DNA from: Prorocentrum cordatum
Taxonomy: Eukaryota
NCBI GenBank assembly: GCA_963575745.1
Contig: CAUYUJ010000203.1
Span: 372,001 to 436,000 of the forward strand
Reading direction: 5' to 3'
Length of the DNA stretch: 64,000 nt
How positions within the stretch are numbered: position 1 is the first letter of the stretch; every line of letters begins with the position of its first letter. Position numbers and translations under genes: made by a program. Below, in pieces: positions 27,781-63,279 of this stretch. Below the pieces are notes generated by a model that had not been told where the DNA came from, searched no databases, and was given only the letters and a program-made list of their open reading frames with translations.

Positions 27781-30700
27781 AAGCATCCCTGAGGACTCTG
27801 ACCCGCGTCACCGTCGTCGTCGTCGTCGGCAGCCCCACGGCGTATGCACAGTAAAGTGGTTGCCGCGATGCCCGTTGTCTTGGTGGCGACACACCAGCCC
27901 CATCCTGGTAGACGGCGAAAACCATGGCGACTCCTCCGCCGTCCAGCTCCTCATCCCTCCTCCTCCTCCTCCTTCTAAGTATCGTCCCTCCTCCCTCCTT
28001 GTCCCCTTCCCCTTCACCTCCTCCGCCCCCCTCTCCTCCACCCTCCCATTCCTTAATTTCTTGAAGCTCTTCATCGTCGCTGTCTTCGTCGTCGTCCCCC
28101 TTCAGGATCGGCGGCACCAGCCGTAAGGCGACATCAATGATTTATGCCCGTTTGGGCTCACACAGAAAGCAGTTTGGAGCCCCCGTGGGGCGTCTTGGAG
28201 GCCTCGTGGGCCGTCTCGAAGCAGTGGTGGGCGTGCTGGGGACGTTTCGGTGCCCCCTGGGCCCTCTGGAAGACCCCTTTAGCGGGTCGAGGCTCGTTTG
28301 GCCCCCCATGCGGCACTTTGGCACTGGTCCGCACCCCCCCAGGGGCCTCCTCATCTCTCTCTCGCTCTCTCTTTCTCTCTCGTTCTCTCTCACTCTCTCT
28401 GTATGTAGATATTCTATATGTACATATGTGTGCGTGCCTGACCTTCGGGGTTTCGAAGGGCGTATCCCCACCAAGGGGGGTGGGCTGGCAGGGCTGAGAT
28501 ACCACGGCCCAGTAGGGGCGGGAATAGATAAGACGATGCTGGCCCCTCCCAGAAGAGTAGGATTGCCCAGGGCGGCTCCTCGGCCCAAAGTGGTTGGGCC
28601 TTCTGGATCGTGCTTTGCTTGGGGAGCTCGGCACTGGCGAACTCTTCCGCGGAGTACAATGCAGTGCGGACAGGCCGGGTGGGGGAGAGGGTGGCCCTCC
28701 ATACAAGGCCATGCCGAGTCAGACCAACCACCAACTCCTTTCCACCCGCTCCATACAGGGGCCGGTCTAGCACTTGTGGTGGGATGGGGGAGCTCGGCAG
28801 GTGGCGGGGCGACTGTTCCCATCTGAGGAGCGGAAAAGGACGGGGGAGAAAAAGGGGGACGGGGGGCAAGGGGCAACAACAACCTGGAGATGTGCGCGAA
28901 AGGGAAGGGAAAGGAGAGAGGGGAGCAGAGGAGAACGGTGATGGGAATGGGGAGGCCAAGGGAGCAGAGGCAGAGGGGGAGCAAGTTGCGGCACGGACTG
29001 GATCAGACGGAGACGGGCAGGGCGCAGGGGTGCCCTAGGCACGGAGCACCCGAGATTCGAGCACCCCCCCCCAACACCAACATCAAAGCGAGAACCGCGA
29101 TCACCCTGCGCAGCCTCGAACCGTCGCGCCGTCGCCCGCTGCGGGCTCTCGCGACGGCCCCCGCGAGATCGCCCAAAAGCGTGGGCGCGCGGGGGGGACC
29201 CTTCCAGCGCGCCGCCCTGGCCGACGGAACCTGGGGAAACCAAAAAAGTACCGAGTGGCCGTTTGCTGTTCTCCTCCGGGTACGCGGGAGTGGGGGCTTC
29301 GGGCGGGGAGGGCAACGGCAACGGCGGCCTCGGCGTGCACCCGCCAGGGTGCGTCCGCGCCACCGCCGCATCACTTGCCCGCGTGCACCACAGCATGCAG
29401 GGCGGGCGTCCAGGCCCCCACCCCTGGTACGATCGTTAGCGTTACCCCAGGGGATTGTGGGGGGGGGGGGGGTGGCCGGTGACGAGCGCCACCCTGGGGA
29501 GAAAGAAAACACGCTCACCGATGCCGCCACTCCCCAGACCTCTCCCTGGATGCGCTCTGGCCAGACTTTCGGGGCGACCCCAGCGGTGGCGACGAGGGCC
29601 TCCCAAGAGGCCCACATAGAGGACAGACGAAGGGAGGGCAGCGGTGTGGGAACCCTTGCCCTCCTCCGAGGCCCGTCGGGGCCACCGCCCATCGGCAGAC
29701 CGAGGGGCCCGCCGCAAGAGCCGTGCGGCCAGGCCGCCGCAGCCCGAGAAAAAGCACGAGCGCGCGCCGACCGCGCGCCGACCGCGCTGCATGGCGCTTG
29801 GTCTCGCTGCCCGGAGCGCCACTCTCGGCGGCGCGCCCGGGGGGGGGGGGGAAGGCAGACGGGGGCAGGCCTCGGGGCTTGCCAGCAGTGCCCCTGGCCC
29901 GGGGAGCCCCCCCCAGCTTGCCGCTCCCTTTTGGAGCCCCTCGGGCCCTCTGGGCCTCGTGAGGGGTGCTCTGTGGAGGCCGTGGGGGCCTCCTGGGAAA
30001 TCCTGGGGGCACCTTGGGCCAGGGGCGCACTTCTGGCAACACCCGAAGGCCCCTCTCAGAAGGCGTCCGGCCTTCCGAGAAGCCCTCGGCGGCTTCGGAG
30101 GAGGCTCCGCAAGCCTCCCAGGAACCTCGAGGCCTTCTGAGCCCGAGAAGGCACGCCCCCTCGGCCGCTCCTCTCGGTCACACCGCCGATATCCACAGGC
30201 GGCAAGGATACGAAGTTCAACCGAAACTGAAGGTGCTGCCGCGCCGCCTCGGTGTCGAACAGTATGAGCACACCACGGGTTCGGCGAGCACGACTGGTAC
30301 CACACAGCGGGGCCCGACCGTAGGACCGAGCCCGTCGAAGATTCTGGCTCAAGCAATGCACGGCGGGTGCCGTCCAAGAGCTTTCATCAACATCCCCGGG
30401 CCGCGAACGATGCGCGAGACCGCTCAACCTCATTGAACGCCCGTGTCTCCTGGTGGTCGCTTCGGCAGCAAAGCGGCATAACATTGGCGTAGCACGTGTA
30501 GGAGATCGATCCGAGCCGCTGCCATATTCAATGCTCCACGTGAGGTACACGAGCGCGCGACGGACGGTCACGGTCATAGCAACTCCCGCAGTGCGGGATT
30601 ACTTTGTGCACTCGAGATCCTCGAGCTTTACTTGCACGCCGGCGGTGTCCCGTTCACGCGTCAGCAGCCTGGGCTTTTTTTTTTGCGGAGCGCGAGGGCG

Positions 30701-31361
30701 GCAGAGGAAGAGTTCAGTGTCGATGAGCTGGCCCCCCATCTGATGGGAAGGGGACTGCACCGTGCTACGAGTTCAAAGCAAGTGCTGTACAACGGTCTGG
30801 AGCAATGTGCACTCGAATCCACAGTCAAAGCCCTGAAAAAATAAAACTGGCCACGCCCGGTGGAGCCGATAGGCCAGCGCGCTTAGGCGCGAATGGCATA
30901 CCGAAGAGTCTCCGCATTGAGCGACGGCGCAAATAGAGCGAACGGCAGGTTCGGCTTCACAAATTCCATCACGCTTGCATGACTGAGCATGTGCCTCCTT
31001 GAATGTACACGCTGACGCAGCTGCCATGCTGTATGTCACTCTCCTAACGAAAGCAGCTGCAGCTTCAGCATGGGCAACTAGGCCCCAGGTGTTCGCGCCT
31101 CGGTGGACATCTTGAAGGAACACACCCATACCAGAATGGCGCCCGACGCAAAAACTTCGAAGAGAAATGCCACCGCAATGGTGATCGCTAGAGGCCGCCC
31201 AGGGCGGCGCAGATGAGGTAGAACGTTAGAGGGGGGCCGGCTCAGCTGGAGCGGGTGGTTTGGAGAAGGTGGGAGAGGGAGATGAGCGACAACCGCAGCA
31301 ATAGCTGTCGAGAGAGAAGGGCACGGACGACGGCCGACCTGCAGGAGGACTCTCACTGCAA

Positions 31362-31670
31362 CTATGAGTCCTTGACGCTCGCAGAGCATGACAGCTCGGG
31401 CTTGGCAACGCGGTGAGGGACAGGCATCGCCGCATGCCCCTGGCAGTCTGTGCTGCCAGGCCTGGTCGCAGTGTCGCCCGGTCGCCCAGATGCGTGCTGT
31501 CCACTGTGCTGGTCGTCAGGGCCGCGGGAAGCTGCCTGCTGCATGTGCTGCTGCACCTGCCTGGTGATCTTCACGCTGCGCTTGGCCTTCACTGCCTTCA
31601 TGGCCTTGGCGGCCTTCACGGCCTCGAAGGCCCGCTGCATCTCCTCGTCATCTGTGCCACTGGAGCTCAT
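31362..31670 (-). CDS. 102-aa ORF at the 5' end of the retrocopy, function unknown (probably truncated)
   Basis: First ATG after the SL stack: MSSSGTDDEEMQRAFEAVKAAKAMKAVKAKRSVK...; GC3-rich codons in the N-terminal part. No continuous frame downstream. Confidence 0.5.
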   Translation of the reverse strand: MSSSGTDDEEMQRAFEAVKAAKAMKAVKAKRSVKITRQVQQHMQQAASRGPDDQHSGQHASGRPGDTATRPGSTDCQGHAAMPVPHRVAKPELSCSASVKDS

Positions 31671-31737
31671 GATGTCGCGAGGCGCTGGTGGCCGGTGGCT
31701 TGAGGTAAGGTGCGCCAAAATGGCTTGAGCCAACTGC

Positions 31738-31759
31738 CTTGAGCCAAAATGGCTACGGA
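31738..31759 (-). other. Exact dinoflagellate spliced leader TCCGTAGCCATTTTGGCTCAAG, followed by relict leaders
   Basis: 22/22 match to DCCGTAGCCATTTTGGCTCAAG; then GCAGTTGGCTCAAG (31737-31724) and CCATTTTGGCGCAC (31723-31710). Confidence 0.97.
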
Positions 31760-33141
31760 CGCGTCAGCAGCCTGGGCTTGAACCCTGATGGGGGGGGTAA
31801 TACAGTCGGCCCGTGTCAGAAGGATGCGCGGTAAGGATGCAAGGGCCTTGGAGGCCCATGCTCGCGTTTGTCGAACGAGAACGGCCAGCGAAAGTCGCTA
31901 AGCATGGGCCGACGGGGCAAGGATGCACGGGTACACGTCGTTCATTTCTAATCGTGCTCATTTCTAATTGTGCTCGTTTCTGATTGTTCCTGGCCCCCTA
32001 AGGGCCAGGAAGAGGCCCAGGATAGAACAATTAGAAGTGAAAGGATCTTGGCCCCCAAAGAGTCAAGGAATGTTCGAAGACTTCGAGATGAGCAATGGGT
32101 AGCCCTGGGAGGATTGCCTATCCTTGCCATGCGGGTTGACTGCAGTGGGAGAGCCCCAGAGGGGACGGCACGAGCACCGACGTCCCGTGCGGAAACACCA
32201 GCTCGGGGGGTGAAACGGTGCGAGGAGCCGGGAGGCGCGACTGGGGGGGAACTCACCTGGTCAGGAAAAAAAAGCTCCCCAAACAGTCCACCACCACCAC
32301 CACGATGCCGAGCACCCGGAAGGAGGCGTGGGCAGAAGAGTGCGCAATTGGCAACTCCTCGGGGCACGCAAAGAAAACGCTACACGTCGAATGCGTGCGT
32401 ACGGAAATGCGACTGTAGGACTGCGACGCATAGAAGCGGTGCGCATCACGACTGTGAAGTAGAGAACGAAGCGCCAAACTGTGAAGCAGAAGAGTGGCGA
32501 GGAAGGGAGGGAGGGGAGCGAGGGAGGGGCGAGTAGAAAGGGGAATCAATAACAATCGTTGCAATCCTCTTGTTTAGGCGCGTCGAGGGGTCACGTGCAC
32601 TCCTCCCGTGAGTGGCACATCTCGACGGATCCCTCATGGCCGGCGAGTGATCAGTTGCTGAGCAGCTGGGGGGAACCCTCCCTGCGGCCTTCGAGATATT
32701 ACAAATACCCTAACGACGCCCAAATCCTGACATCCTCCGAAGAGGTACGGTGAGGGCGTTCGTTGAGGAATGTGCCCAGGAAACTTCAGACCCTGGATGA
32801 TTCCTTATCTGATGAGGGCGTCGTTGATATCAATGGCCAAGCACAAATTGGTGTTCTACCAACTCCGCGACCCTGGAGGATTCCTTCCGCAATTGGGCAC
32901 ACCGGCTGACAATGCCTGGCCATGGTCCCAAAGAAGCGGGGCTTCATGGCAGAAGACCCACGAGCAGGGAATCCCCAACGAGACAACCCCACCGTCGCCT
33001 CAACCACCATTGCTCCACCTCCCCCTCCCCTCCCCTCCCCTCCTTCACTCTTACCCCCCGCCTGTCTTTCTGCGTATCTCTCCGTATCTCTCTCACTCTC
33101 TCTCTCTCTCTCTCTCTCCCACTCCCCCCCCCCCTCTATCT

Positions 33142-33377
33142 AGGGGCCTCCTAGATGGGGTCCGAGTAAATGAGGTCGAAGGATCACGCCGCATCTCCGA
33201 TGCATCAGCGATGGATCGGCGATGCATCGGCGATGCACCAGCAACGTCGGTGAAGTTGCACAGGCGACGTCGGCGTGGAGAAACTCGGGCTCCACATCGA
33301 GCCGCATCGCCGATGCATGGGCGATGCGGCGCGATCCTCCGAACCCATCTACTCGGAACCCATCTAAGAGGCCTAGA
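33142..33377. mobile_element. Palindromic MITE family A, 236 bp, 6-bp TSD CTATCT
   Basis: CTATCT at 33136-33141 and 33378-33383; termini AGGGGCCTCC...GAGGCCTAGA; long inverted arms. Confidence 0.88.
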
Positions 33378-34194
33378 CTATCTCTCTGCTCCGCCGTGTC
33401 GTCCGTCTCCTCTGCCGCCGCCGCCTCCTCCTTCCGTCCTCTCACCCCCTGTTCCTCCAAGGCCGCCGCCGCCGCCTCCTGGCGGCAAGACTGGCCAGTC
33501 GCCGCACGCGCAACAAGAGAGTGCGCGGCTCGCGGGCTGCAGGCCTTATCGCGCGCGGGGACGCAGATGGTCTCGTGATCGGTGACCTGCCCCCGGTAAG
33601 GTAAATCATTGACAATGCATCACAAGACGCAGTGATGGACGAAGCATACTCGATGGAACAATCATTGAAAACCAACAATGTCAAACAGCACGATCTGCTA
33701 AATAATAATTTGGGTTCTGAGTCTGGCAGGGGGACGAGGAAAGTATGAAGGGGGATCGAAGACGGATGGATGCAGAGGGGGATAAGACAGCAGGAATGGT
33801 CCCGGACCCCGCAGGGCGCTTGGCCAGGTCTTGCCAGCACACCCCAGGCGATCAGACAGGTGATCAGAGAGACCGAAGAGAGACCCAAGACAGCACAAAA
33901 GCGCTCCAAAAAGCACCCAGATGGCCTCCCGAGGCCCCCAAGACGGCCCAAGAGGCCCTGAACAGGACTCCCAGAATGCAGAAATCGCTTCATTCCCTCT
34001 GGGAAACGTGCATTTTCAGCAAATTCGCTGTTCGGGTCTTAGCAGCGCCCAAAACAGCCACAAAGGCCTCCAGTGTCGCACCGGGACGGCCCGGGGGACC
34101 CCCGAGACAGCCTCTGGACGGCCTGGGCCATGGGAGGCCACCAGGAGGGCCCACGTAGCCCCCTTCAAATCCCTAGGGGGCTCAAGCTCGCCGG

Positions 34195-37100
34195 CTTGAG
34201 GGCCTTGGGGTCGTACGATCTTACGGCCTTAGAGTCTTGGGAGATCAGGGTATTATGGTATTGTGGCGTCAGGGTGTTATGGCATTAGGGTGTTAGGGTC
34301 TCAAGGTATCCAGGCATCATGGCATGATTGAACTAATGTATGACGGTCTTGCGGCCTTAGGGTCTTAGGGCATTCGGGTCTTAAGATATTAAGGGGTGTC
34401 GTTGGGTCTTAGGGTCCTCGGGTCTTACGGTTTTAGGGTCTTCGCGTATTAGGGCCTTGGGGTCTTAGGGTATCAGGGTGTTCGGGACTTATGGCATGAG
34501 GGTCTTAGAGTATGAAGGTCTCAGGGCATCAAGGTCCTAGGGTGTTAGGGTCTTAGAGTCTCAGGGCCTTACAGTGTTTGCGTCTTAGGGTATTGGGGCA
34601 TTCAGGTATTAGGGTATTATGGTATGAAGGTCTTAGGGTATTACTGTTTTAGGGCATGCGGGTGCCAGTCATCGGGGCGGCTTCAGGGTCTTAAGGCATT
34701 GCGGTGTGAATGCGCTAGGGTGTTAGGAGTGTTCGGGCATTCGGGAATTAGGGTGTTCGTGTCTCAGCGCTCTAGTGAACTATCAAGTTAAAGCATTCAG
34801 GTTTTAGGGTCTTACGCTTTGGGGGTCAGAGGACATTGGGATCTTAGGGCATTGGGGCATTACGGTGTAAGGGCGTTAGGGTCTGAGGGCCTTCGGGTCT
34901 TAGGGTATCATGCTCTTAGCGTCTTAGGGCATTGGGGTCTTAGTCAATCAGGGTCCTAGGTTTTAGGTTATTCGGGTCTGAAGGCCGTAGGGTCTCATTG
35001 TCTTAGGGTGTTAGGATCTCTGGGTAATAAGTCTTCTTGCTTTAGGCTATCTGGTCCTAGGGTGTTAGGGCTTTAAGGTGTTCGAACCTTAGGGGCTCAG
35101 GGTTTACGACATTCCGGCCTTGGGGTCTTAGGGTCTTTTGGCACGAGGAATCAAGATCTGAAGACCTTGGGTTTTTAGGGTATTTGGAGCCTTAGAGTGT
35201 CATGGCATTAGAAGTTAGGGCATTAGGGCATCAGGGCAGTAGGGGACTAGGGTATCAAGGCATTCGTGGAATTGGGTCTTCGGCCCTTGGGGTATTGAGA
35301 TATTAGATGTTCGGGTCTTAGTGTATTAGGGCGTTAGGGTCGTAGGGCGTTGGGAGTCTAAAGTCGTCGGGTCTTTGGGTCTTTGGGATTTAGGGTGTTC
35401 GGGTATTCGAATATTAAGGCATTAGGGTATTAGGGCGCTAGGGCTTTATGGGTCCTAGGGTATTGAGGAATCAGGTGTTCGGGCCTGCTGGTCTTAGGGC
35501 ACTCAGGTCTTCGGGTATAGGGGGGCGGGGGGGGCAAAGGTCTTCGGGTATTAAGGACTTAGGGTCTTAGTGTATTGAGGCATTACGATTTTAGGGTATC
35601 AGGGCAATCGGGTATTAGTGCATTGGGGTCTTATGGTCTTAGGGTCCCAGCGTCTTAGCGTCTCAGGGTCTGGTCTAAAGGCAATAGAGCCCTAGGGCCT
35701 TAGGGCCTTGGAGCCTTCGGGTCTTGGGGCCGTCGGGCCTTAGGGCATTGAAGCCTGAGGGCTTTAGGGCCGGAGGGTCTTTGGATATTCGGGTCCGAGG
35801 GTCTCACGGCGTTAAGGTATTAAGCGTTACGGTCTTAGGGTGTCTAACCCCTTACAGTGTTAGGATCTTAGGGTCTTCAGCTCTGAAGGCATTCGGGCCT
35901 TAGGATCTCAGGGCGTAATGGAATTAGAGTGTGATGGGTTTAAAAGGTGTTCTGGTATCAGGGCATCGAGGAAGTATGTTTTAGGGTCTTAGCGTCTTAA
36001 GACCTAGGGTATTAGGGCAGTGTGGTATTGGGGCCTTGGGGTAATGAGCCATGAGGTGTAAGGGTCTTAGGGAAGCAGGGGGGTCTTCAAGGATTAAGGT
36101 ATGAGGGGAATAGGGTCTTCGGGGTATGGGAGTATCCGGGTATTCTACTGTTTTGGTATGGGGGCATCAGCGAATTAAGATATTAGGGCGTTTGGGCGTC
36201 GGGGTGGTAGGGTCTTGGGTTTTCAGGGTCTTAGGGTCTCAGGGACTTGGGGTATCAGGACCTTGGGGTCTTATGGCAGGCGGGGGGGTACGGTCTGAGT
36301 CCAGTAGGGCTTTAGGGTGTGATGCCACCCTTGGTGGCCGGGTGGCCAGGACATGTGAAAATACGTGGGTCTAACTCGGGACCGCCATGTCAGATACCAC
36401 ACGGCGGGGCCTGGGCACGTGGAAAACAAGATTCCAGCTAGGGGCAACCATGTTAGGTACACCTCTGGGTTGCCTGGACACGTGAGAACACGTGACCCCA
36501 GCTCGGGGACACCATGTTCGATACCACCCGGGGTAGCCTGGACACGCGAAAACACATTGCGGTCTTACGGCGTTTTGGTAGTAGGTTTTACGGATTTGGG
36601 TCCCTAGAGCATCCAGGTCTTAGTCTTTGAGTATTATGTTATTAGGGTACGGACCCATGTCATTGATGTATTTCCGTATTCAAGTATTCGTTCAGTCGAG
36701 TATTATTGTATTAGGGTATCAGGGCATTCAGGTATTCGGATATTCGAGTATCGGGGTATTTGAAACATCGGGTAGTACTGCACCTTCGGATGTTAGGGCA
36801 TTAGGGTCTTGGGTCTCGGGGACTTACGGTCTGCGGGTCTTGGGGTAATGGTGTATGAGGGTCTTAGTGTATCAGGGTACTTTTGTCTGACGGCCTTCGA
36901 ATCTTAGGGCATTCATGTAAGATAGAATTCGGGTATTAGGACGTTCGTGTTGTTCGGCACCCGGGTATCAGTGTACGAATGGTATGAGAGTATGAAGGTC
37001 ATAGGTTATTAGGGTACGAGGGTCTTAGGGTCTTAGTGCGCAGGGTCTTAGGGTCGTAGGTTTAGGGTCTTAGGGCACTAGTGTCTTATAGCATTAGGGC

Positions 37101-40100
37101 CTTCGGGAACAGGGTCGTAGCGTAGGGCCTTAGGGCCTCAAGCCTTAGAGTCTCAAGGTCTGCAGGCATTAAGTCCGGCACTCGGGTACTCACAGCATTA
37201 AGGTTTTAAGGTGTTCGGGTAGTAGGGTCTTAAGGCCTGCGGGTGATAGGGCTTTCGGGCATTAGGGCCTTCGGGCATTAGGGTGTTAAGGTATTAGGGC
37301 AATGGGGTGTTAGGGTATTCGCGTATTCGGGCACCTGAGTGTTAGAAAGGATTGCATTTCGATACTTAGGGTCGTCCAGTCTTAGGGTCTTAAGGCATCC
37401 GGGTCGTAGGCTACTGGAACGGGGCAGTAGGGTATCAGGGGCTTGGGGCCTTCGGGTCTTGACCTCCTAGGGTCTTAGGGTCTTAGGGCCTTAGGGTCTT
37501 AGGCTTGAGGGCGTTATGGTCTTAGGAAATTAGGGTATGAGGGCCTCCAGGCCTTACGAACTTGAAGCGTTAGGGCCTTTGGAGGCTAATGTCTTTGGTT
37601 TTTTTTTTTTTTTTTTTTTTTAAACAAAAAAATCGGGTCTGCAAGTGCTAGAGCCTTCGGATGTTCGGAATTTGCGGTCTCAGGGCCGTCGGGAATTAGG
37701 GTCTTAGGGCAATCGGGTATTATGGTATCAAGGTAGTAATGCATTCGTGTAACAGTGTATGCGGGGACTCGGTCAGCCGGGCCTGAAGATGCTAAGGTAG
37801 TCGGGCCTTAGAGCATTGAGGTAGCATGTGTTAGGGTCTTAGGGCCTTCGGGTAGGGTTTCAGGATGATGGGACTCAAGGGTCTCAGGGTCTGAGCGTCT
37901 TTCGGGTATTCGGCTATCAGGGTGTCCGGGTATAGTAGTACCAGGGTATCATATGTGTCATGGTATTGTGGCAATCGGGCCCCAGGGTCTTAGAGTCATG
38001 GGGCTTCAGGGCATTCAGGTTTTAGGTGTTAAGGGTCTTCTGGTCCTCGGACATTCGGGTCTGAGACTATTTGGGGGTTAGGGTCTTAGGGTATTCGGGC
38101 ATTCATGGATTACGAGATCAAGGTATCAGGGTATTCGCCTAATCGGGTCTTCGTGTCTTAGGGTCTCGGGGAATCAGGGTCCTCGGGCTCTAGGGTGTTA
38201 GAGCCTTAGAGCCGCAGGATCTTAGAGCCTCATGACATGAGGGTCTTCAAACCTGAATGCATTAGGGCCGTAGGGTGTTCGGATATGTACGTATCACGGT
38301 ATTCGGTGTGTTAGGGTCTTGGGTATTAGGGCCTTGGGGTGTTAAGATCTTAAGGTCTTACGCCTTCAGGGTATTAGGGCCTTCGGGCCTTTGAGTCTTA
38401 GGGTATTAGGCCTGAGGGCCTTAGGGTACTATGGCCTTAGGGGTTTAGGATATTCTGGTCTTGGGGTATTAGGGCCTTCGGGTGCTAGACTCGTAAGCCC
38501 CTAGGGTCCTCGGGCCCCAGGTCTCAGGGTACTAGGGCATTCGGGTATTAGGGCGTTCAGGTGTTAATGTATACTGCATTAGGGTCTGAGGGCATTGAGG
38601 TATTATGCATGAGAGTATGAGGGTCGTAGGGTCGTATTGTCTTAGGGTGTTATGGTATTACGGCCTTGGCGTATCGGTGTATCAGGCGTTAGCCTCTTAG
38701 GTAGTAGGGTCTTAAGGTGTGGAAGCCTTCGGGTATTAGGAGATGAGGGTCCTGGGGCATCGGGCCATTGTGGTACTACTGTATGAAGGTATCAGCGTAC
38801 TACGGTATTCGGGTGTTAGGGCGAGGAAGTGCTAGGGCCTTTGGGTCTCAGGGTCTTACGGTGTGAGGGACTTTTGGGTCTTAGGGACTTAGGGTGTTAG
38901 GGTCATACGGTATTAGGGTATCAGGGCCGTCTGGTCTCAGGGCCTCAGGGTGTTATGCCCTGAGGGCTTTAGGGCATGATTGCATCAGGGTATTACTGTA
39001 TTATGGTCTCAGGGTGTTAGGGCCTCAAGGTCTTAGGGTATTGGCGTTCTAGGGTAGGAGGGCGTTCGGGTGCTAGGGTATTGGAATATTATGGTGTTAG
39101 GGTGTTCGGTCGTTAGGGCATCAGGGTATTCGGGTATTCGGGCATCAGCGTCTCAGGGTATCAGGGCGTTGAAGTCTTCGGGTCTTGAAGTTTTCTGGCT
39201 TTAAGGTCTGAGGTTGCCGGGGCTTTTAAGTCATAGGGTGAGATGGTAGTGTGGTACTACTGTGTTTGCGCGTTCGCGTCTTAGGGTAATAGAGCATTCT
39301 GGTGTTCTAGTGTTAGGTTATTTGGGAAACAGGGTATGAAGGTATCAGTATATCAAGGCATTCGGGAATTATGGCCTTTTGGTTTTGCGGTATCCGTGCG
39401 TCAGGGTTTTAGGGTATTCGGGTATCAAGGCATCAGGGTATTAGGGCGTTCGGGTGTAACTGCCTTTGGGTATTAAGGTGTTCGCGTGTTAGGGTATGAG
39501 ACAATTGGTGTCTTGGGGTCTCAGGGTATTGGGGCATTCGTGTGTAAGGGCGTTCGCAGGTTAGTGTAGTAGGGTATTGGGGTCTTCGGGTGTTCAGGTG
39601 TTCGGGCATGAAGGTATTGAGATAGCAGGGGATCAAGGTATTAGGGTATTAGGGTATCAATGATGAAATTGGGGTTCTGGTGTTAGGCCATCCGGGTATT
39701 AGGGTCTTAGGGTGTGAGGGTGGTAGGGCTCTAAGATGTTGGGGTCTTGGGGTCGAAAGGTCTGTGGGAATTAGGGTCTTACGGTATTGGGACTTTAAGG
39801 TATTAAGGTATTAGGGTCTTTGGGATTTAGGGTACTTGTGTATTGTGGTATCAGGGTGATCTGGTATGATGGTATACAGGAATTCATGTGTTAGCATAAT
39901 CAGGCATCCGAACATTAAGGCATTGGGGTGTTAGGGTATGGAGACCTTCGGGTGTATGTGTGCTAGATGTTCAACGCATTAGGGTCTTAGGGTCTTAGGG
40001 TTCTGGGGTATTAGGGCCTTCGGGTCTTAAGGTCGTTAGTTGTCCGGATCTTATGGTATTGAGGTATTACGGTGTTCCGGCATCAGGGTCTGCGGACTTG

Positions 40101-40770
40101 AAGGTATTAGGGTTTTGTGGCATTCGGGCGTTCAATAAATATATGGTTTGTGGCATTGGTGGTAGCATGGCAATAAAGCATTATGGTGTTAGGGCAGCAC
40201 GGTATGATGAGGGTCTTAGGGTCTTAGGGTGTTATGGTATTAGGGCCTTCGGGTGTCTGGGTGGCAGGGTCTTAGGGCGTTCGGGTCTTAGGGACTTAGG
40301 GTGTTAGGTTCTCAAGGTCCTATGGTTTTCATATGCTAGGGTCCTATGGGTTTGGCGCCTTAGGGTCTCTGGGCTTTATGATCTTAGGGTGTTCGGGCCC
40401 TGGGGTCTTCGGGTCTTGAGGTGTTCCGGTGTTAGGGCCGTAGGGTATCAGGGTCTTAGGGCGTCAATGTCTCAGGGTAGTATGGTACTAGGGTCTTGGG
40501 GTCCTAGGAGTCTGACGGTCTTAGGGCATTACGGCGTTATGGTCTTGGGGTTAGTAGGTTCTTAGGGTCTTGGGGTGTTAGTGTCCTAGGGCATTCTAGC
40601 ATTATGGAACTAAGGCATTAGAGGCTTAGGGTCTTAGAGTCTTATGGCCTTAGGGTATGCGGGTCATGGGGCATTAGGACCTTAGGGTCTTAAGGCCTTA
40701 GGGCGTTATGGTCTTAGGGTATTAGGGTCGTGGGATCTTAGGATGTGTAGGTATTCTGGTTTTCGGGTGT
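34195..40770 (+). repeat. 6.5-kb degenerate octamer satellite (TTAGGGTC/TTAGGGTA/TTAGGGCA/TTCGGGTA)
   Basis: ~8-bp periodicity with a TTAGGG core, G/T-rich plus strand, almost no ORFs; T25 run at ~37598-37622. Confidence 0.93.
36322..36560. repeat. ~64-bp tandem repeat (about 3.5 copies) embedded in the octamer array
   Basis: cc(a/t)gg(a/g)ca(t/c)g(t/c)g..aa motif at ~36345, 36410, 36473 and 36537. Confidence 0.8.
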
Positions 40771-44390: not shown

Positions 44391-44406
44391 TAATCTCGAG
44401 CCACTT

Positions 44407-45643
44407 TTGCTCGAGCATTTTGCGCGAGCAGCTGACCTGCGCCTCTACGGGGTGCTTGGGGGACCACGCCCAAAGAGTTCTTTCCATCGGATTCTTGCTG
44501 TCGCTGACGAGCACTGGGAGCTTCGAATATCTGCCACCAGTCGTGCGTATTATCAGTGCAAGGCTTGCCACAAGTTCGAGTGGAACGATCGCTTGCTCAA
44601 GAACGGTTCCTGTTGTTCCCACTGCAATGACAAGGTCAAGCACTATGTGCCAAAGTCGCAGAAGGGCGGCAAAGGAGTTCAGTCCGAGCAGGTGGGTGGG
44701 AAGGACGTCCAGGAGATCGGGCTCGATCGGCTGCTGCAGCAAGTGGTGGCGAAGACGGAGTCTACCGCGCTCAAAGAAGCGGTCTCTGCGGAGCTGGTCA
44801 AGCTCCAGGCGCCAAGGCGCGAGACCATCGCCCCGGGCACGGAGGCCGAGGCGGTCGGAAGCGCCACGGGAGTGTGGCGCGACGCTGATCACACACATTC
44901 ACAAGCAGTCGCAGCAGTGGTGAGATTACAGGACGGTCGGACCATTGCGATGGAGAAGGAGGTTCAGGCCGCGCAGGTTCTGGCGCAGGCCGAAAATGGG
45001 GAGAGGGCGGTCACCGAGGCGTTGGCGCGCGCGGAGGGCATCACCTTCGACACGGCCGATGCCAGTCAGGGAGCCGCCAACCAGCCGAAGTTCCAGGTCA
45101 CTTGGAATGAGATGCTGTTCCACGGGCTCGACGAGCTGGAGCGCGAGGAGACGGAGCGCCAGGGGCTGCGCCTCGTCCGCGCCCAGCTGCAGGAACTCGC
45201 TGAGCGCCCAGGAGTCCGACATCCAGGTGATGCTGGAGAAAGCTGCCGCGGTGCGCGAGGAGGTCGACGACCGCCTCGCGAAGAGAAGGAAGACGACGGA
45301 GGGCCAGACGACCCCAGGTGGAGGGCGCGACCAGGGCGCCGCAGGTGGGGGCTCCACGCCCGGGGCCACTCAGGCGGCCGAGGCGGGGGCCGCTGCCGCC
45401 GCCGCGCCCGCCGCCAAGGCCGAGGCCGAGCTGCGCGTGCAGGAGCAGATCGAACGGGAGGCGGCCAATCTGTCGTCGGCCAAGTTCGCGGCCCAGCGCG
45501 CGGCGCCGGAAGAGCAGAAGGCGACCCTCAGCAGGTCCATGGGCAAGGGCAAGGGCAGAGGCAACCGCGAGGGAATGGGCAGCGGAGATCCAAATGCACA
45601 TGCAGCTGGCGGGCCTGCCGCGAGCGACACCGACGAGCTGTGA
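44407..45643 (+). pseudogene. LINE ORF1-like (CxxC-x13-CxxC zinc ribbon plus coiled-coil), frameshift near 45200
   Basis: CKAC...CSHC, then A/E/Q-rich helices; continues in the 44945-45643 frame (DIQVMLEKAAAVREEVDDRLAKRRK). True start codon uncertain. Confidence 0.65.
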
Positions 45644-45860
45644 CTAGGCCCTGCAGAGGCCGAGGAAGGCCACCAGTCGGGACATCCAGTTATTTTTCCT
45701 GAATTTGACGGTGATATCCACCAAGTGTTGGGGCAACTTGCGGAGGCCCAATCCGTAAGGGCTTCGCCCCATGCCGCCGGCCCCCTGTCTCGGATAATCG
45801 GAGACGCAAAAACTAAATCATGAGGTCTGGGCGCCGCCGTGAAGCAGTGTCGGGACCTCT

Positions 45861-46460
45861 TGACCCTACGGATCTGCGTCACGGGTGCCACCGAATTTCG
45901 AAAATGTAGCAAATCCCTTGTGTTTTTGGGCCCTGACCCTACGGATCTGCGTGAAGGGTGCCGCCGGATTTTAGAAATGTAGCAAATCCGGTTTGTTTTT
46001 GGACCCTGACCCTGCCGATCTGCTTGAGGGACGCCGCCGACTTTCCAAAATGTAACACATCCCCTGTGTTTTTGCACCCTGACCCCGCCGATCTGCGTGA
46101 GGGGCGCCACCGGATTTCACACATGTTGCACATCCCCTGTGTTTTTGCACCCTGACCCCGCCGATCTGCGTGAGAGGTGCCACCAGATTTGTTAAATGTG
46201 GCAAATCATGTGTTTTTGCGCCCGTACCCCGCCGATCTGCGCGAGGGGCGCCACCGGATTTCAAACATGTGGCAAATCCCATGTGCTTTTGCACCCTGAC
46301 CCCGCCGATCTGCATGAGGGACGCCGCCGAATTTCAAAAATGTGGCAAACGCCATGTGTTTTTGGACCCTGACCCCGCCTATCTGCGTGACGGGTGCTAC
46401 CGGATCTCAAACATGCCTGTGTTTTTGGACCCAGACCCCGCCGATTTGCGTGAGGGGTGT
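45861..46460. repeat. 73-bp minisatellite (~8.5 copies) at the left end of a ~2-kb insertion (45861-~47915) in LINE ORF2
   Basis: tgaccc...gatctgc unit at 45861, 45934, 46007, 46080, 46153, 46224, 46297, 46370 and 46433. Confidence 0.92.
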
Positions 46461-47914
46461 CAAGTTTTACCCACCCCAGAAATTCAGAGCACACGCTCAG
46501 GGCGTCGTGAAAATGCCCGTTTTGGGCCTCCCCCCCTCGCGCGGTCCATCAACAAGGAACAGTAAGCAGCAAGAAGCAGAACTGTAACAAAGAACAATGA
46601 GCAGCAAAAAGCAGACAGTAACAGTGGAAACTGGAAGCTACAACTGGCACAGGAAATTGCGAAGCTTCGGCCTACAGCCGGGTGGCCCCACAAGGGTAGG
46701 AACCAGAAACAGCACACACCCAGGATTTTCACACGAAGGGGTTTTTTGGCACCACCAACGGTGCAACGCATGTGCACACGTGCGAGTGGATCCCCAGCGA
46801 TCCGACCCAGGGTTGATGCACGGCCGCGCTCTAGGATGCAGTTGGCATGCATGGTGTGGCAAGGCTGTCGGCGGCGACAAGATCCCAGGATCCGCTACCA
46901 ACTAACATTCCATGGTGGTTTGGCACAGCCATCCATGGTGGTTTGGCACAGCCAAACCACCGTGCAACGTCAGTTTGTTCATCCTTTGACAGCAGCACTC
47001 GTCGCGGCAGCAGAAAGCAGTGGCGCGCGCGGGCATGCAGGGCCGGCGATGTGGCTGGCCAGCTGCCAGCGCGATTTCGGCAGAAGAGCCGAAATCCACG
47101 CAGGATCGCTTTGGGCGCGGTATCCGGCGCAGCTGCATCGCGCTGCCAGGCGCCGCGGCCTTGCGATTGTAGCGCCAGGCCCCGCGCGCCCCTCGAGGCG
47201 GGAAAGCAAGCTCCACACAAAGGAATCGCGCGTGCTCTTGTGGGGGCGGCGAAAACGATCGCACGCAAAAGAAATTCCTTTGTGCGCCCCCCGCGTTGAC
47301 AGTGTAACCAGACCGCACGCAAAGGAATTGCACGAGACGTCATGGCACACAAAGTAATTACACCAACGCCCTTCGGGTTGCCCTCTTCGCGCGCGGTGAC
47401 AGCTCCGAGCTGGCAAGGAAGGGGGGGCGGGGCAAGGCACAGCAGGGGCAAAGGAAAAAGAAGAGGAGGGCGAGAAAGAAGCGAAGGAAGCAACGAAAGG
47501 AAGCCAGGATGCGCGCAAGTGAAGCTAACACTGCGCGCCGAGACAGTTGTTCATTCGTTCGGTTGGCCGCGCGGCAGATGAATAGAAAAAGAATTGTTTG
47601 CTGCCTATCGAAAGGACTTCTTGGGAATGAGACCCGCGCTCTCTTCCCGACCCCCTTTCCCGCGCCCCGTTGCGAGCGCGCGACGAGTTGTTCTGGCCCG
47701 CGGGCAGAGGACTGCCAATTGCTGGTGGGCGGACTTTCCACCCGTCACGCGTTCCGAACACACGCGGCCGGCCAAGCGAACTTGCCACGCACACCGCCAG
47801 CCCCAAAGACCGACGCCGTACCGATCCCCGCACCCGTGCCAGGCACCCTCTCAACGACGCCCCCTTCCGGCGTAAAACCAATAAAACCCTTTGCGTTTAT
47901 GTGTTCTTCCCTGT

Positions 47915-48560
47915 TCTGAAAGGGGGCCGGCGGATTTCGATTTCCCTGGGGTGTGCGAGACTCATGTTGTCGAGTCGCAATTCAAATCGTGGGATAAGAA
48001 AGCCAGAGGGGCTGGCTATAGCTTACTTGCCAACCATGCGAGAGCGAAGAAGAAGCGCGCAAGTGCTACCATGATCCATCGGTCTTGTGAAGGAGGCGAG
48101 TGGCTTTTGGCTCGGCGGCATTTGCAAATGCAAAATGTTCTTAACAAGTCCACGGCGATGAAGCCGAGGGCCCCTGGCCACTCTGCACTCGATGGCTTCC
48201 AAGCGGTCATCGCCCACGCGCAGGGGTACAGCGCGATCATTGACGTTCTTATGGCCCCCCAAGCGCGCAGTTCAGGGGAGGCAGCGTCAGTCGTTGCCAG
48301 GAGTCGGGCGCCATGATCAACTCGTGTCAGTGGCCGTGGAACGTCACTGGTGATTGGGATGTAAAATCGGAGATCACGCGTCGGTCTCGATTCTTCGGTC
48401 GTCTGCTCGGCGAGCCGTGCTTGCTGGAGGCGGGGAAGTTTGCGGTCGCTTGCGAGTCTGGCGAGACGGGCTCTATCATCGACTACGTCATCTACGTCAT
48501 CTGATCCCAATCGGCCAAGGGATACATAGTCCGTCAACGGTGCCGTGAAAGCCCCGCGCG
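47915..48560 (+). pseudogene. APE-type endonuclease remnant of LINE ORF2
   Basis: GVCETH (QET-type motif), PWNVTGDWD (GDFN-type), IIDYVI (IDY-type). Confidence 0.82.
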
Positions 48561-50109
48561 GGGCTGCTGGCGTCGCTGCGGGCCTCGGGCGAGCAGTTGC
48601 TCGCGCGCCCCCGCGGAGGTGCCGAGGCCGCTGCCCCGGGCAAGGCGGCCGCGAGCTGCCCCGCAAACGGGCTCGAAGCGCAGTCGTGCTCGCAAAGAAA
48701 AAGCAGAAGGACAGGCCCAGATGAAGGAAGCTCAGAGACGATGTTTCGAGCGCTATTTCGGTGGCGCGTTGAAGGGCGTCGGAGGGAGCGGGGTGCGCGA
48801 CGGGCGCAGTGCCGGGAGCCCCCCTGACCTCGACGAGAACCCCGGTCAGGACCCCCGGTGTTTCTTGGAGGCTCAGCATGGACGGGCCCCGCTCGAAGAG
48901 GAGGAGGGCCCCTGGGCCCGCGAGACTGAGTTTGCGAACAATGGCGGTCGCCCTTCTGCGCCCCTGGGACCCAGCGCGCCCGCGCCGCCAGAGCTCCATT
49001 CCCATGTCTCGGGGAGGGCTGCGCGCACTGCCACGGTTGATAATTCGGGCCATTCGGGGAGGGTCGGCCCTGCGACGGGCCAGGAGCGGAGCTCTCGCGT
49101 CTTCCCGGCGGGGGCGTTCGCCCCTGACCAGGGGTTCGACCTTCCGATGCCCAGTGATCCCGGCACGCAGCCCCGCGCCCCCCGCTTCGGCAACCCAATT
49201 CGGACCTCGGAGCGATGCGAGTGACCGTCGCCTGTGAGGTTTCGTGTGTCTGGGGAAGTTTGGTCTCGGAGCAGAGCCGAGATTGGGTGCGCGCCAGGCG
49301 CCCGATGTCCTGCTCGCCCCTCGGTCATCTCCGCCGTAGCCTTTCTACGGATCAGGGCCCTGTTCGCGCAGTCAGTTCCCCGTGCGCTTCCCGGGTGCGA
49401 TTGGCGCAACTCTCACTGCGCGAGCACCGCGGTTGTCAAGGCATATCCAAGGTCAGCCGCAGCGCCATTCGGCGCGGCTTCGCGCGGCGGCCCCGCGCGA
49501 TCATATTGCAAGCTGGCGGGCTCGACTCCACGCGCCACTTCGCAATTCGGGGCGCCATTCGCAGCGTCAGAACGGCAGCAGGCAGGGGGACCCTATATTT
49601 TCACATCAATTGGCGGGCTAGCCTCAGAGTACCCAGCGCAGGCGCACGCGGGGCTGCGAATGCGAGCGCAGCTACGGGGTGGCCCATCGCGGCGGCGATG
49701 GCGCAATCCCACCAGCCCCTTGGGCGTGAGTGGTTTAGAGAGCCCGCTCTGTCCTCAACCCCCCTTCTTCCTCTTCGGGGAACGGTTTACCCCTCCCCCT
49801 ACCCCCTCCCCCTGGGCCTGGAGAGGGGGTTCCGCGGGTCGTTGGAAGGGTCTTTTCCGACTCCTGGGAGGGCTAAAACACGACGACCCTCACGAGGATT
49901 CTGGCCCCGACGGGGGGGGGAGTTAGGCCCCTCTGCTCTTCTTCGAAGCCAACAGCATTGCTTTTACTACGGTTTTGGCCCCATGTTGGCCTCCTGCGGG
50001 GGCCGCGCTCATCTACCTTCATAGCAAAATCATTGATTTTACAAAAAGGTTTTGGCCTCAATTTGTCCTTTTTCAAGGGGCAGCTCTCATTTGCGCTTAT
50101 GAGGAGGTC

Positions 50110-50710
50110 GCAAGAGGCCCCAAGATGGCCCAAAGAGCCCCGAGGAGGCCCCCAAGAGGCCCCCCCAGAGGCCTCCGAGCGGTCCCAAGAGGCCCCCAAG
50201 AGGCCCCCAAGGCCCCCAAGAGGCCTCAAGAGGGCCCAAGAGGCCCCCAAGAGGCTCCCCAGAGGCCCCCACGAGGCCCCCAAGAGGCCCCAAGAGGCTC
50301 CAAGAGGCCCCCAAGAGGCCCCACGAGGAGCCCGAACGACTCACACCAGGACAAGGGGCCCGAACGACTCACACCACGAAGAGCCCGAACGACTCACACC
50401 ATAAGGAGGGGCCCGAACGGCTCACACCAGGACGAGGCGCCCGAACGACTCGCACCACGAGGAGCCCGAACGACTCACACCACGACGCGGGCCTCGAACG
50501 ACTCACTCCACGAGGAGCCCGAACGAGTCACACCAGGAGGAGGGGCCCGAACGACTCACACCAGGATGAGGGGCCCGAACAACTCACACCACGAGAAGCC
50601 CGAACGACTCACACCAGGACGAAGAGCCCGAACGACTCACACCACGAAGAGCCCGAACGACTCACACCAGGAAGAAGGGCCCGAACGACCCACACCAGGA
50701 AGAGAAACCC
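50110..50710. repeat. 11-bp ccccaagagg array followed by an alternating 25/28-bp gcccgaacgactcacacc array, inserted in the LINE
   Basis: About 14 copies of gcccgaacgactcacacc with alternating short spacers at 50330-50700. Confidence 0.92.
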
Positions 50711-51329
50711 CAAACGTCTCAAATCACGAGGAGCGCTTTCTCCCCCTCCTCCTATGCCTCGTCCTTCCCCCGCTCCCCCCACAAGGATGATGTGCAAGGA
50801 GGCGGGAGGAAGGAGGAACAGGGGAGATATGCGGGGCCAAGCGGACACACGCCTGAAAAACACGACTGTCGGCATGCTTCGCAAGAGTTGCTGCTGTGAG
50901 ATGGGCTGGCGGGGATACGCGAAGCGTAAAGAATTTTCTCCAGGAGAATCCCCGTCGCGGGGGAAGATGCGATTGAGACGTTCGCTGATAATGCAGGCCG
51001 AATTGCCGGCTGGCGCAGCGGCGTGCATTGGCAGCTTCTCTCCGCGAGCTCAGTGATTGGATGGCGGCGGCCCCAGCCTTGGCGAAGCTCCAAATAGGCA
51101 CCGAGGGCGACCCGCTGGCGCCGCTGGAGGCCGAACTGGATGGCACCGCGCTCGCGCACTCCAGTGAGGGATGTGATTGACGCAGGGCGGCCACGCAGCG
51201 CAAGTTGCGGTGTCCCATCCGCGACGATGCCCATGGGGTTCGCGGGTAATTTCGGCGGGCCAAAGAGCGCGCTCAGCTTGACATTCTTCCATCTATCACA
51301 AGTGAGATGGTACGAGCGGCTGCCCATCG

Positions 51330-52340
51330 CACGCGGCCGCGTCCTGGAATGGGGGCTGATCAGACGTCGCCTCGTGGTTTCAAGAGGCGACGCTGTCGCC
51401 TATTGCACGACGACGCTGTCGCCTGGACATGGACGCAGTGGCTCCGTTGTATACGGCGCGCGAGGGGAAGGTGGCGTGGCCCCATCAGGCGCTGGCGATC
51501 CTAGGCAGGCTGCTCCCGAGGAAAGGGGGCGGCGACCGCGTCATTGGCGTGCTGGCGGTGTTCGCCAGGATCTGGTCGCTCATCCGCGAACCCACCGTGG
51601 GCGACTGGAGCGAGGCGACAGCGGCCCGCCTGGGGCGCGGCGGCGCATGGCAACGCGGCCTTGAGAGAAGCGTTCGTAGGGGCGCGCCAGGAGAAGGCCG
51701 GGTAGGTGCTGAGCACTCAATCGGGCCATGGGCCATTGGACATCGAGGCCTTCTATGACAACATCCGTTGACAAGTGCTCTTGTCGAATGGATTGAAGTT
51801 GGGCTTTCCAGCCGCAGCGACGCGCGTGGAGACGCTCCAGTGCATGTCTGTGCGCACGTTGGGCCAGCGAGGCGCGTGGGCGTGACCTACCATTCCAACT
51901 CGATCGAGCGTGCAGGGCCTTCGTTCTGGCACGCGCTTCGCACGATTTGTCGCGCGCGTCGCCCTGCAGCGCATTTGCGCGGCCTGCCCGAAGGCGGGCC
52001 GCAGAATATGGGTCAATGAAGTGTCGGAACGGGCGGTTGGATCCAACGCGAATCGGCGCGGGCCGGGAACTGCGGTGGGGCCGACAGCCCAGGGCAGGTG
52101 TCTCACCGCGCTCATCGGCTTGAAGACGCCTGCGGATCCCGCGCTGCGCTTGCTTGAGGACTTCGCGAGGCTGTGGTTCCGCATGTGTCAGCAGCAGCCG
52201 TTGCTGAGAGCGGGGGTGCATGCGGCGCGGGATACGGTGGTCGCTCACCTGTGGAAGGCTGAGCCGAAACATCGCTCGCGCCACATTCGCGGACCGCTGT
52301 CGGCGAAGGCGGCGCTCCTGCTGGACAACGGCTGAGACCC
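51330..52340 (+). pseudogene. LINE reverse transcriptase remnant
   Basis: GMGADQ, LLPRKGGGDRVIGVLAVFARIW (KxxxxRPI-type), LDIEAFYDNI (DxxKAFD-type), VQGLRSG (QG), IWVNEV (decayed Y/WxDD); sequence appears to be deleted after the catalytic motif. Confidence 0.85.
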
Positions 52341-52689
52341 GCAGTCCGCCATCTGCTGGGCCAAGCCGCCCGCGGAGACGGGCGAGGTCATCGAGTGGCA
52401 GTTTCCTGACGCAGCGTGGACGGGCCTCGTGGACGTCGACGCGCCGACAGGGCTAGTGAGCGATTTGAAGAATTCTATTTCGGCGAGGTGATGGAGGAAG
52501 GCCAGCGATCGCTACTGCGGCATGGGGGCTGAGCACGGCGTCGGCATGGCATCGTGGCGCAAGCCCTGCCAGCAGTTCTCCAACATACCGCAGGGCAGCC
52601 GTATGGCGGAGGTGCTCAGCATGGTCGTCATGGGCGGCTGCTGGCCGAGAGATCGGCGAGTTGACGCAGCGGGGGCCAACGCGTTGGGC

Positions 52690-53960
52690 TTGTCGCGCCT
52701 CTGCCCGAGGTGTGGGCAGGAGGCCGAGACCATGTCCCATCGGGGCTGGAGCTGCCCGAAGAACGTGGAAACGCCAGCGCACGAAAACTCGCAGGATTTG
52801 CTCCCGCAGGCCTACAGCAGGCACGACACTGAGCAGTGCTACTGGTTGCGGGGGCTGCTGCCGGCCATGTGGACCGAAGTGACACCACCGCAAGAGCGTG
52901 AGGAGTGGCACGTGTCGGGCGCAGCTGCAGACAGTCTCGGGAGTCTCCCGTTCGGGCACGGCACTGAGCAGAGGTCACTGCGGCTTTTGGCTGATGCCAG
53001 TGGCGGCGCCGACTCGGCCGACAGCAGGTTTACACGCGTGGGCCGGCGGTCATCAGCGTGAGCACCTACGATCCCCTGGCCCTGACGGTGTCGGGGTCCT
53101 CCCAGGGGCACGGCAGAGTGCCCCCACGGGGAGCTGTTCGCGCTGCTCGTCGCCGTCAGGATGTGCAGCGGGCGCGTGTACTTCGTCAGGGACAAAAGTG
53201 GAGTTGCAGACGGCTGGTGCTCGCGGGGGCACGCCTCTCCCAGCGGGGAGGGTGCCGATCTGTGGCACAAGATCGAAATGGCTCTGGCTGGACGCAGTCA
53301 GGCTGAGTTTGCTGTGCTGTTTGTGAATTCGCATTTGCCACCGAAGCAGATGATTCAAGGAGTCGCGCCGTTGCAACTGATGTTTGGCAGCGCGGCAGCT
53401 GACGAAGTGGCAGCAGGTGCGGCGCGTCGAATCAGGCTTGCAGAGACCGAGAAATCTCGTGCACACAGGCTCGTGAAAAAAGTGTATCCGATAAGGTTGA
53501 GGCTGATCAGAACTACACTTGGTGTTCTGGAGACCGAGAGCGAACTTATGCAGAAAGAAAGACAGCTGAGAAAAAGAGAGGAGGTGTGTGAGCCACCGCC
53601 TCCCCCTGCCTCATCAGTGTGCAGGAAGTTTGCGACCAGTCACGTTCTCGATGATTATGGCAAGCGTTGCAAGATTTGTTGTAGCTCTTCCTCCCAGGCT
53701 GCCAAAGCCCAGTGGATGTCCACTCAGTGTTTTAGACGCGCTCAAGTCGATGGAAATTAGACTATCTGCGTTGCCGTCGAGCGTGAGATTACATGTAGGG
53801 GGGGGGGGCTGGGTACACAGTAGCCGCATCATGTTTCTGCACCAATTCATGGGACTCTGGTTTTGCTCACAGTGCGGGCATCTTGTCAGTTGTGTCCTCA
53901 GGAGCCTGGGTCAGGCATGTCTCGAGCGAATGAATGCGAATCGAGCTGAATATTAAATCG
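52690..53960 (+). pseudogene. CCHC finger, RNase H and C-terminal Cys/His motifs of LINE ORF2
   Basis: CPRCGQEAETMSHRGWSC; LLADASGG; GELFALLVAV; FVRDKSGV; ADLW; VNSH; GSAAADEVA (GNxxAD-type); WFCSQCG. Confidence 0.82.
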
Positions 53961-63276: not shown

Positions 63277-63279
63277 CTT

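What the first reader, a model, noticed from the sequence alone, without database searches (positions are those of the whole stretch)
30656..31779. Complete retroposed mRNA with every hallmark: full spliced leader, poly(A) tail and ~20-bp TSD
Seen: an exact 22-nt DinoSL at one end, A10 at the other, and identical flanking repeats ACGCGTCAGCAGCCTGGGCTT; the outermost bases overlap the SL and poly(A), so the TSD is 19-21 bp. Known: SL relics mark mRNA recycling in dinoflagellates, and a long TSD plus poly(A) is the signature of LINE target-primed reverse transcription. Inference: a recent event (TSDs and SL unmutated) showing LINE machinery copying a trans-spliced mRNA to its very 5' end.
Basis: partly seen in the sequence, partly recalled or inferred. 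Interest (0 to 1): 0.8.

Follow-up and report, generated by a model that had tools for sequence, protein, structure and literature searches.

The report
Fresh thrice-recycled dinoflagellate mRNA retrocopy
A complete copy of a mature dinoflagellate messenger RNA, with its spliced leader, two worn older leaders and a short A-tail, sits between two identical 21-base repeats and was likely pasted in recently by a LINE-type jumping gene; this is a clean example of known 'mRNA recycling' that points to the likely enzyme.

Summary
Confirmed. On the minus strand an exact spliced leader (31738-31759), a 1,053-nt mRNA body and A10 lie between two identical 21-nt repeats. The true duplication is 18-21 bp, not 19-21. 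Transcript contigs from 4 of 4 runs laid cover the body colinearly. In two runs homology ends exactly at the A-tract and the RNA runs on with non-A sequence, so the tail is likely added, not templated. The closest expressed variant may differ at only about 1 site in 930, unphased.

The 102-aa ORF is an orphan.

Poly(A), a long duplication and no LTR flanks fit LINE-type insertion, not the Ty1/copia route favoured in a 2018 review; the enzyme is inferred. No genome, empty allele or DNA copy number could be checked. Environmental leader loci gave 0 of 48 with tail plus duplication. This scan has noted the same structure several times elsewhere in this genome. A new member of a known kind.

The parts
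31759..31779 (.). Target-site duplication, copy at the leader end (21 nt maximal; base 31759 is shared with the leader's first base)
   Evidence: exact repeat of 30656-30676
31738..31759 (-). Full 22-nt dinoflagellate spliced leader (D=T)
   Evidence: 21/21 match, only hit in the window, 0 of 100 shuffles; consensus as printed in PMC5585692
31724..31737 (-). Older leader relic 1 (12 of 15 bases, last 10 exact; one base shorter than implied by transcript-derived protein P0004)
   Evidence: alignment to the 15-nt relic; no exact leader 10-mer elsewhere in the window; P0004 reading frame
31699..31723 (-). Older leader relic 2 (12 of 15 ungapped at 31709-31723 with the first 10 exact; or one relic with a 10-nt insertion; or two relics)
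   Evidence: 4 of about 128,000 other positions reach 12/15 and none is higher
31671..31698 (-). Rest of the 5' UTR
   Evidence: sequence; covered by transcript contigs
31362..31670 (-). Open 102-aa orphan ORF (P0001); first 45 codons look coding (GC3 0.91, GC2 0.38), the rest do not; K30 where 4 of 4 homologues have R
30685..31361 (-). 3' UTR, 677 nt
   Evidence: covered by transcript contigs, some with 0 differences; homology to the RNA family ends at 30685
30675..30684 (-). Poly(A) remnant, A10, of which 2 A belong to the duplicated target
   Evidence: sibling transcripts in runs X7 and X10 continue here with non-A sequence (table 7)
30656..30676 (.). Target-site duplication, copy at the tail end

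Best explanation
This is a full-length DNA copy of a spliced-leader-capped, polyadenylated mRNA flanked by an exact 18-21 bp duplication, likely inserted recently in trans by target-primed reverse transcription with a LINE-type enzyme, from a parent that was likely itself an already twice-recycled retrogene. Inferred steps: (1) an endonuclease nicked the plus strand at GCTT/GAAC; (2) the exposed TT end paired with the poly(A) tail and primed reverse transcription; (3) copying ran to the leader's first base; (4) a second nick up to 21 nt away and fill-in made the duplication, with a 1-nt (T) overlap at the 5' junction. Shown: the structure, the colinear transcript family, the end of RNA homology at the A-tract, and the two older relics. 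This copy is probably not the main expressed locus, since transcript contigs carry another base at 31582.
For: Leader, A10 and an exact flanking repeat at the two ends. Contigs of 4 of 4 runs laid, from 4 studies, cover every bin from 30697 to 31761, with no depth at 30200-30483 and only one 25-nt non-intron-like skip in one contig. In X7 and X10 a roughly 96% sibling transcript aligns up to 30685 and continues with 56 and 48 non-A bases. In X5, contigs with 0 differences tile 30798-31159 and one with 2 differences covers 31248-31730. No retroelement or LTR-type repeat flanks the insert in the self-comparison. Literature hallmarks: PMC5470649; LTR elements make much shorter duplications (PMC2912911). 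A decayed LINE-like element with an RNase H-like ORF lies 13 kb away, which shows at most that such elements exist here.
Against: The enzyme is not shown and no intact LINE was seen. No genome is held, so the parent locus, its introns, DNA copy number and the empty site are untested. Two of the four runs are of unknown kind, one is RNA only by guess, and contigs are unphased and drop rare variants. Environmental leader-headed loci gave 0 of 48 with A6+ followed by an upstream duplication (short contigs, mixed organisms), so generality outside this genome is not supported. A cap-derived G is not supported: G at -2 in 8 of 44 sites against 0.195 background. A review argues for Ty1/copia (PMC6050394).
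Confidence: 0.84

Rival explanations
1. The insert is one copy of a non-autonomous, leader-headed retroelement family (SINE-like) that LINEs mobilise repeatedly; the ORF is incidental.
For: Orphan ORF with no Pfam match and a non-coding-like second half; long 677-nt 3' UTR; at least two, probably three, near-identical expressed variants and short segments shared with other transcripts; stacked relics show repeated retroposition.
Against: The 90% protein cluster has 3 members, of which one is from NCBI. A profile search of 1.84 billion representatives found 3 proteins. No second copy in the window. No look-alike among this scan's indexed stretches (weak). The N-terminal block is conserved at 55-64% overall identity across paralogues. 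Copies with a broken ORF would escape the protein tests.
Confidence: 0.08
2. The cDNA was made by an LTR retrotransposon (Ty1/copia) or captured at a double-strand break, without a LINE endonuclease.
For: PMC6050394 calls the mechanism unknown and favours Ty1/copia; LINEs in Symbiodiniaceae are described as old and LTR elements as young (PMC8045281); the tail is short.
Against: No LTR flanks; an 18-21 bp duplication is far longer than LTR elements make (PMC2912911); the A-tract joins a target that starts with AA, as tail priming predicts.
Confidence: 0.05
3. Assembly artefact (a cDNA contaminant stitched into the contig) or a DNA-level duplication.
For: No DNA run or long read was available to span the junctions; the two private differences could be consensus errors.
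Against: A contaminant would not create an exact duplication of flanking DNA at both ends; the window has no N; a DNA duplication does not explain the non-templated tail or the full leader.
Confidence: 0.03

Closest known systems
DinoSL-tagged retrogenes ('mRNA recycling') of dinoflagellates: Song 2017 PMC5585692 (passages), Song 2018 PMC6050394 (parts 1-2 of 3), Jaeckisch 2011 PMC3229502 (passages), PMC12014239 (passages); Slamovits and Keeling 2008 seen only as cited
   Same: Genomic leader in front of an ORF; tandem relics cut after the leader's AG that decay towards the 3' side; three leader units are known (91 and 82 genes with three relics in two Symbiodiniaceae genomes).
   Different: This copy still has both insertion junctions, the tail and the duplication. 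Those papers identify retrogenes by the leader alone, and my searches found no paper joining dinoflagellate retrogenes with target-site duplications. Hou et al. on PCNA retroposition was not held.
LINE-1-made processed pseudogenes (PMC5470649, PMC2912911, passages)
   Same: Colinear mRNA copy, poly(A) remnant, long duplication, a pyrimidine/purine nick site, short 5' microhomology.
   Different: The nick site is GCTT/GAAC rather than TTTT/AA, the tail is only 8-10 A, the 5' end is fixed by a trans-spliced leader, and the enzyme family is unidentified.
LTR-mediated retrocopies (PMC5470649, passages)
   Same: RNA-derived gene copy.
   Different: No LTR flanks, complete 5' and 3' ends, long duplication.

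Membership tests
DinoSL-tagged retrocopy | DinoSL or relic in genomic DNA upstream of an ORF | tested here: met
DinoSL-tagged retrocopy | Not an SL RNA gene (no GT intron and Sm region after the leader) | tested here: met
   leader is followed by GCAG, relics and an ORF, unlike 30 of 132 environmental sites classed as SL-RNA-like; Rfam 0 hits
DinoSL-tagged retrocopy | A transcript family that matches the insert but not its flanks | tested here: met
   4 of 4 runs laid (of 24 listed, 20 holders); only one is on record as RNA
DinoSL-tagged retrocopy | Parent locus in the genome with one leader fewer, with or without introns | not testable with these tools
   no genome held
LINE-made processed retrocopy | Non-templated poly(A) remnant at the 3' end | tested here: met
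   A10; sibling transcripts continue with non-A sequence from the same base in 2 of 4 runs
LINE-made processed retrocopy | Long target-site duplication flush with both ends | tested here: met
   18-21 bp, exact
LINE-made processed retrocopy | Empty site with a single target copy | tested here: inconclusive
   no joint across the insert, but no DNA run was available; the target is not repeated in the window
LINE-made processed retrocopy | An active LINE in the genome with matching nick site and duplication length | not testable with these tools
   only a decayed candidate in the window
LINE-made processed retrocopy | Untemplated cap-derived G at the 5' end (optional feature) | tested here: inconclusive
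   the G before the leader is part of the duplicated target; no excess of G at -2 in environmental sites, 8 of 44
LTR-mediated retrocopy | LTR sequence on both flanks and a short duplication | tested here: not met
   no long flanking repeat; duplication 18-21 bp
Non-autonomous retroelement (SINE-like) | High genomic copy number | tested here: inconclusive
   low counts in protein collections and the window; DNA copy number not measured
Functional retrogene | This copy is itself transcribed and translated | tested here: inconclusive
   C, not the window's T, at 31582 in 92-100% of contig depth in 4 of 4 runs; contigs drop rare variants

The most novel reading that the evidence does not exclude
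Dinoflagellate mRNA recycling is ongoing and is driven by LINE target-primed reverse transcription, not by Ty1/copia. The enzyme copies capped mRNAs to the leader's first base and may nick both strands at the same T/GAAC motif, which flanks this duplication symmetrically. Stacked leader relics would then count LINE-driven generations of a gene.
Probability: 0.6. Interest if true: 0.6.

Novelty: new member of a known kind. Interest (0 to 1): 0.4.

Why it matters
More than a fifth of genes in two Symbiodiniaceae genomes carry leader relics (PMC5585692), yet the enzyme behind this recycling is described as unknown, with Ty1/copia favoured, and whether it is continuous or episodic is open (PMC6050394, PMC12014239). 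Copies that keep both junctions make the question testable by computation: collect all full-leader inserts, then measure duplication length, tail and nick site against the genome's LINEs and LTR elements. One locus does not settle it, and the cargo is an orphan gene.

Tried and rejected
Whole-genome search: no genome held. Metagenome scan for relatives of the ORF: 277 pattern hits, 0 confirmed. Longer or fused forms of the ORF: none (weak). ESM Atlas: no usable hit for P0001. Pfam: 0 families for P0001; the other 6 ORFs in and beside the insert gave only hits far below cut-off. Rfam: 0 hits in the window.

Target as a repeat or gene: the 20-nt target-plus-flank pattern occurs once; the reconstructed empty site has no ORF over 135 aa across the junction and no repeat hit at the junction. 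A tRNA B-box-like reading of the target was considered; ARAGORN at relaxed thresholds called nothing at the junction, and its calls elsewhere at that threshold are noise. A hairpin at the filled tail junction was not found (z 0.87); the empty site itself was not folded. The flank is not a microsatellite (periodicity 0.44; 15 of 87 environmental cargo sites reach 0.7).

Cap-derived G: not supported. Tail plus duplication in environmental loci: 0 of 48 (39 of 87 cargo sites were left out for having under 500 nt downstream; the class includes AT-rich contigs that are probably not retrocopies). The KAMKA stretch recalled DVNP or histone H1-like proteins (from memory), but no search supported it. 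Reverse transcriptase or endonuclease domains in the nearby decayed element: no Pfam hit, no longer homologue, no solved-structure hit. No structure prediction was run.
Full report
Observation. Read on the minus strand, the locus runs: 21-nt repeat (31779-31759), spliced leader (31759-31738), 1,053 nt of mRNA-like sequence (31737-30685), A10 (30684-30675), the same 21-nt repeat (30676-30656). The repeat is exact, cannot be extended and occurs only twice. The 21 invariant leader bases match once in 64 kb, with 0 of 100 shuffles giving a hit. The repeat shares one T with the leader and two A with the tail, so the duplication is 18-21 bp. Exact two-copy 21-mers are common in this repeat-rich window (33); what counts is that these two sit flush with the leader and the tail.

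Directly behind the full leader lie two worn copies of the 15-nt relic left when a genomic leader is trans-spliced again: 31724-31737 (12 of 15, last 10 exact) and 31709-31723 (12 of 15, first 10 exact; a longer reading to 31699 is possible). No exact leader 10-mer occurs elsewhere in the window, and only 4 of about 128,000 other positions reach 12 of 15. Under the recycling model (PMC3229502, passages) the parent had already been retroposed at least twice, so this copy would be at least the third round. That is an inference, and it means the parent may have no introns.

Cargo. An open 102-aa ORF lies at 31362-31670, with no Pfam family. Two clusters were found by word search, three proteins by profile search of 1.84 billion representatives, none among longer proteins. 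The 90% cluster has three members, one from NCBI and two from JGI contigs of 1.1-1.2 kb. The first 45 codons have coding-like base use (GC3 0.91, GC2 0.38) and are conserved among paralogues; the rest are not. Whether the protein is made is unknown. The 3' UTR is 677 nt.

RNA evidence. Of 24 runs listed, 20 hold part of the stretch. I laid 4, from 4 studies; all are contigs, one is on record as poly(A) RNA, one is RNA by guess, two are of unknown kind. All four cover every bin from 30697 to 31761 and none covers 30200-30483. The right flank has separate, more divergent repeat hits (about 89% at 31933-32058). The only joint is a 25-nt skip with non-intron ends in one contig. In X7 and X10 a sibling transcript (12 and 10 differences in about 250-260 nt) aligns up to base 30685, next to the A-tract, and continues with 56 and 48 non-A bases. 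So the family has a longer 3' end and the A10 is likely a tail added at an upstream site. At 31019-31139 each run holds one variant identical to the window and one with 7 differences. In X5, contigs with 0 differences tile 30798-31159. At 31582, 92-100% of depth in all four runs carries C, giving R30, which 4 of 4 homologous proteins also have; the window has K30. P0004's frame implies one more base in relic 1. The closest expressed variant could thus differ at about 1 site in 930 plus one indel. This is unphased and a lower bound. It fits a very young copy that is not the main expressed locus, though a consensus error or a dropped rare variant cannot be excluded. No mutation rate was applied, so 'recent' is relative.

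Mechanism. PMC5470649 (passages) gives a poly(A) remnant and a duplication as the marks of LINE-made copies, and LTR flanks as the mark of LTR-made copies. PMC2912911 (passages) states that LTR elements make much shorter duplications. Here the tail joins a target that starts with AA, the duplication is long and no flanking long repeat exists. I infer a first nick at GCTT/GAAC on the plus strand, priming on the tail, copying to the leader's first base, and a second nick up to 21 nt away. Both ends of the maximal duplication are followed by GAAC on their own strand. This was noticed after the fact at one site and is a lead only. The G before the leader belongs to the target, so a cap-derived G cannot be called.

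Generality test. Of 48 cargo sites with at least 500 nt downstream, 0 had A6+ followed by the upstream word, while the window's site was recovered as a positive control. G at -2 was seen in 8 of 44 sites against 0.195 background, and 11 of 87 had a relic. The contigs are short and of mixed origin, so this neither supports nor refutes the mechanism beyond this genome.

Surroundings. The target is not repeated in the window and the empty site holds no long ORF. At 44395-54066, between two (CAT)n tracts, lies a decayed element that starts with the window's best other leader-like stretch (15 of 21; tandem model score 32, next 28). It ends with an ORF whose nearest Atlas clusters score 0.96 and carry RNase H in 42% and 25% of members. 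Pfam found no reverse transcriptase or endonuclease in it; I see such motifs only by eye and from memory. It is too decayed to be the donor enzyme.

Comparison with what is known. Leader-tagged retrogenes, also with three leaders, are well described (PMC5585692, passages). PMC6050394 (parts 1-2 of 3) calls the mechanism unknown and favours Ty1/copia; PMC12014239 (passages) leaves open the element type and whether activity is ongoing. PMC11453091 and PMC8045281 were seen as passages. Searches for dinoflagellate retrogenes with target-site duplications found none (0 papers; 0 occurrences of the phrase in the 9 listed; one paper on intronic elements, listing only). Subscription papers, among them Slamovits and Keeling 2008 and Hou et al., were not read, and no supplements were opened, so absence from print is not established. 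Earlier notes of this scan report the same structure at several other places in this genome, with 13-20 bp duplications, and leader-headed LINEs. They are unchecked leads; one names the species as Prorocentrum cordatum, which I did not test.

Verdict. A real, very clean, probably very young processed retrocopy and a new member of a known kind. Its value is that the intact junctions favour LINE-type insertion over the published Ty1/copia guess and show how to test this genome-wide. Interest 0.4.

Noticed in passing
window 44395-54066 (+): Decayed LINE-like element of about 9.7 kb between two (CAT)n tracts, interrupted by satellites. It begins with a degenerate leader plus relic (15 of 21) and ends with a CCHC motif and an RNase H-like ORF (Atlas 0.96); no Pfam reverse transcriptase or endonuclease hit.
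   Followed up: partly
window 30652-30655 and 31780-31783: The 4 bases outside each end of the target form an inverted repeat (GTTC / GAAC), so both putative nicks would fall at T/GAAC.
   Followed up: partly
window 30734-30766: A 33-nt segment of the 3' UTR is shared with a different transcript in three runs (loose ends); possibly a short dispersed UTR element.
   Followed up: no
window 31552-31649: The conserved N-terminal coding block is shared with other transcripts that diverge on both sides, which suggests a mobile module or a chimeric origin of the ORF.
   Followed up: no
window 31820-32058: The right flank holds a dispersed repeat found at about 86-89% identity in transcript contigs (31933-32058 in all four runs).
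   Followed up: no
window 34170-40750: About 6.5 kb of degenerate 8-nt TTAGGGTC-like repeats, resembling an interstitial telomere-derived satellite.
   Followed up: no
window 33141-33377 and 63279-63522: A roughly 230-nt element with long inverted arms (69 nt, 86%) present twice at 83% identity; MITE-like.
   Followed up: no
L002, L003, L018, L043, L045-L047, L061: Long, mostly AT-rich environmental contigs (up to 118 kb) carry exact leaders, mostly right after a T-rich tract and sometimes three within 2 kb. These look like genome-encoded leaders in front of genes, not retrocopies.
   Followed up: no
L005, L054, L059, L066, L070, L112, L114, L116: Several environmental leader-headed inserts start directly after a microsatellite; 15 of 87 cargo sites have periodic upstream sequence (no background computed).
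   Followed up: partly
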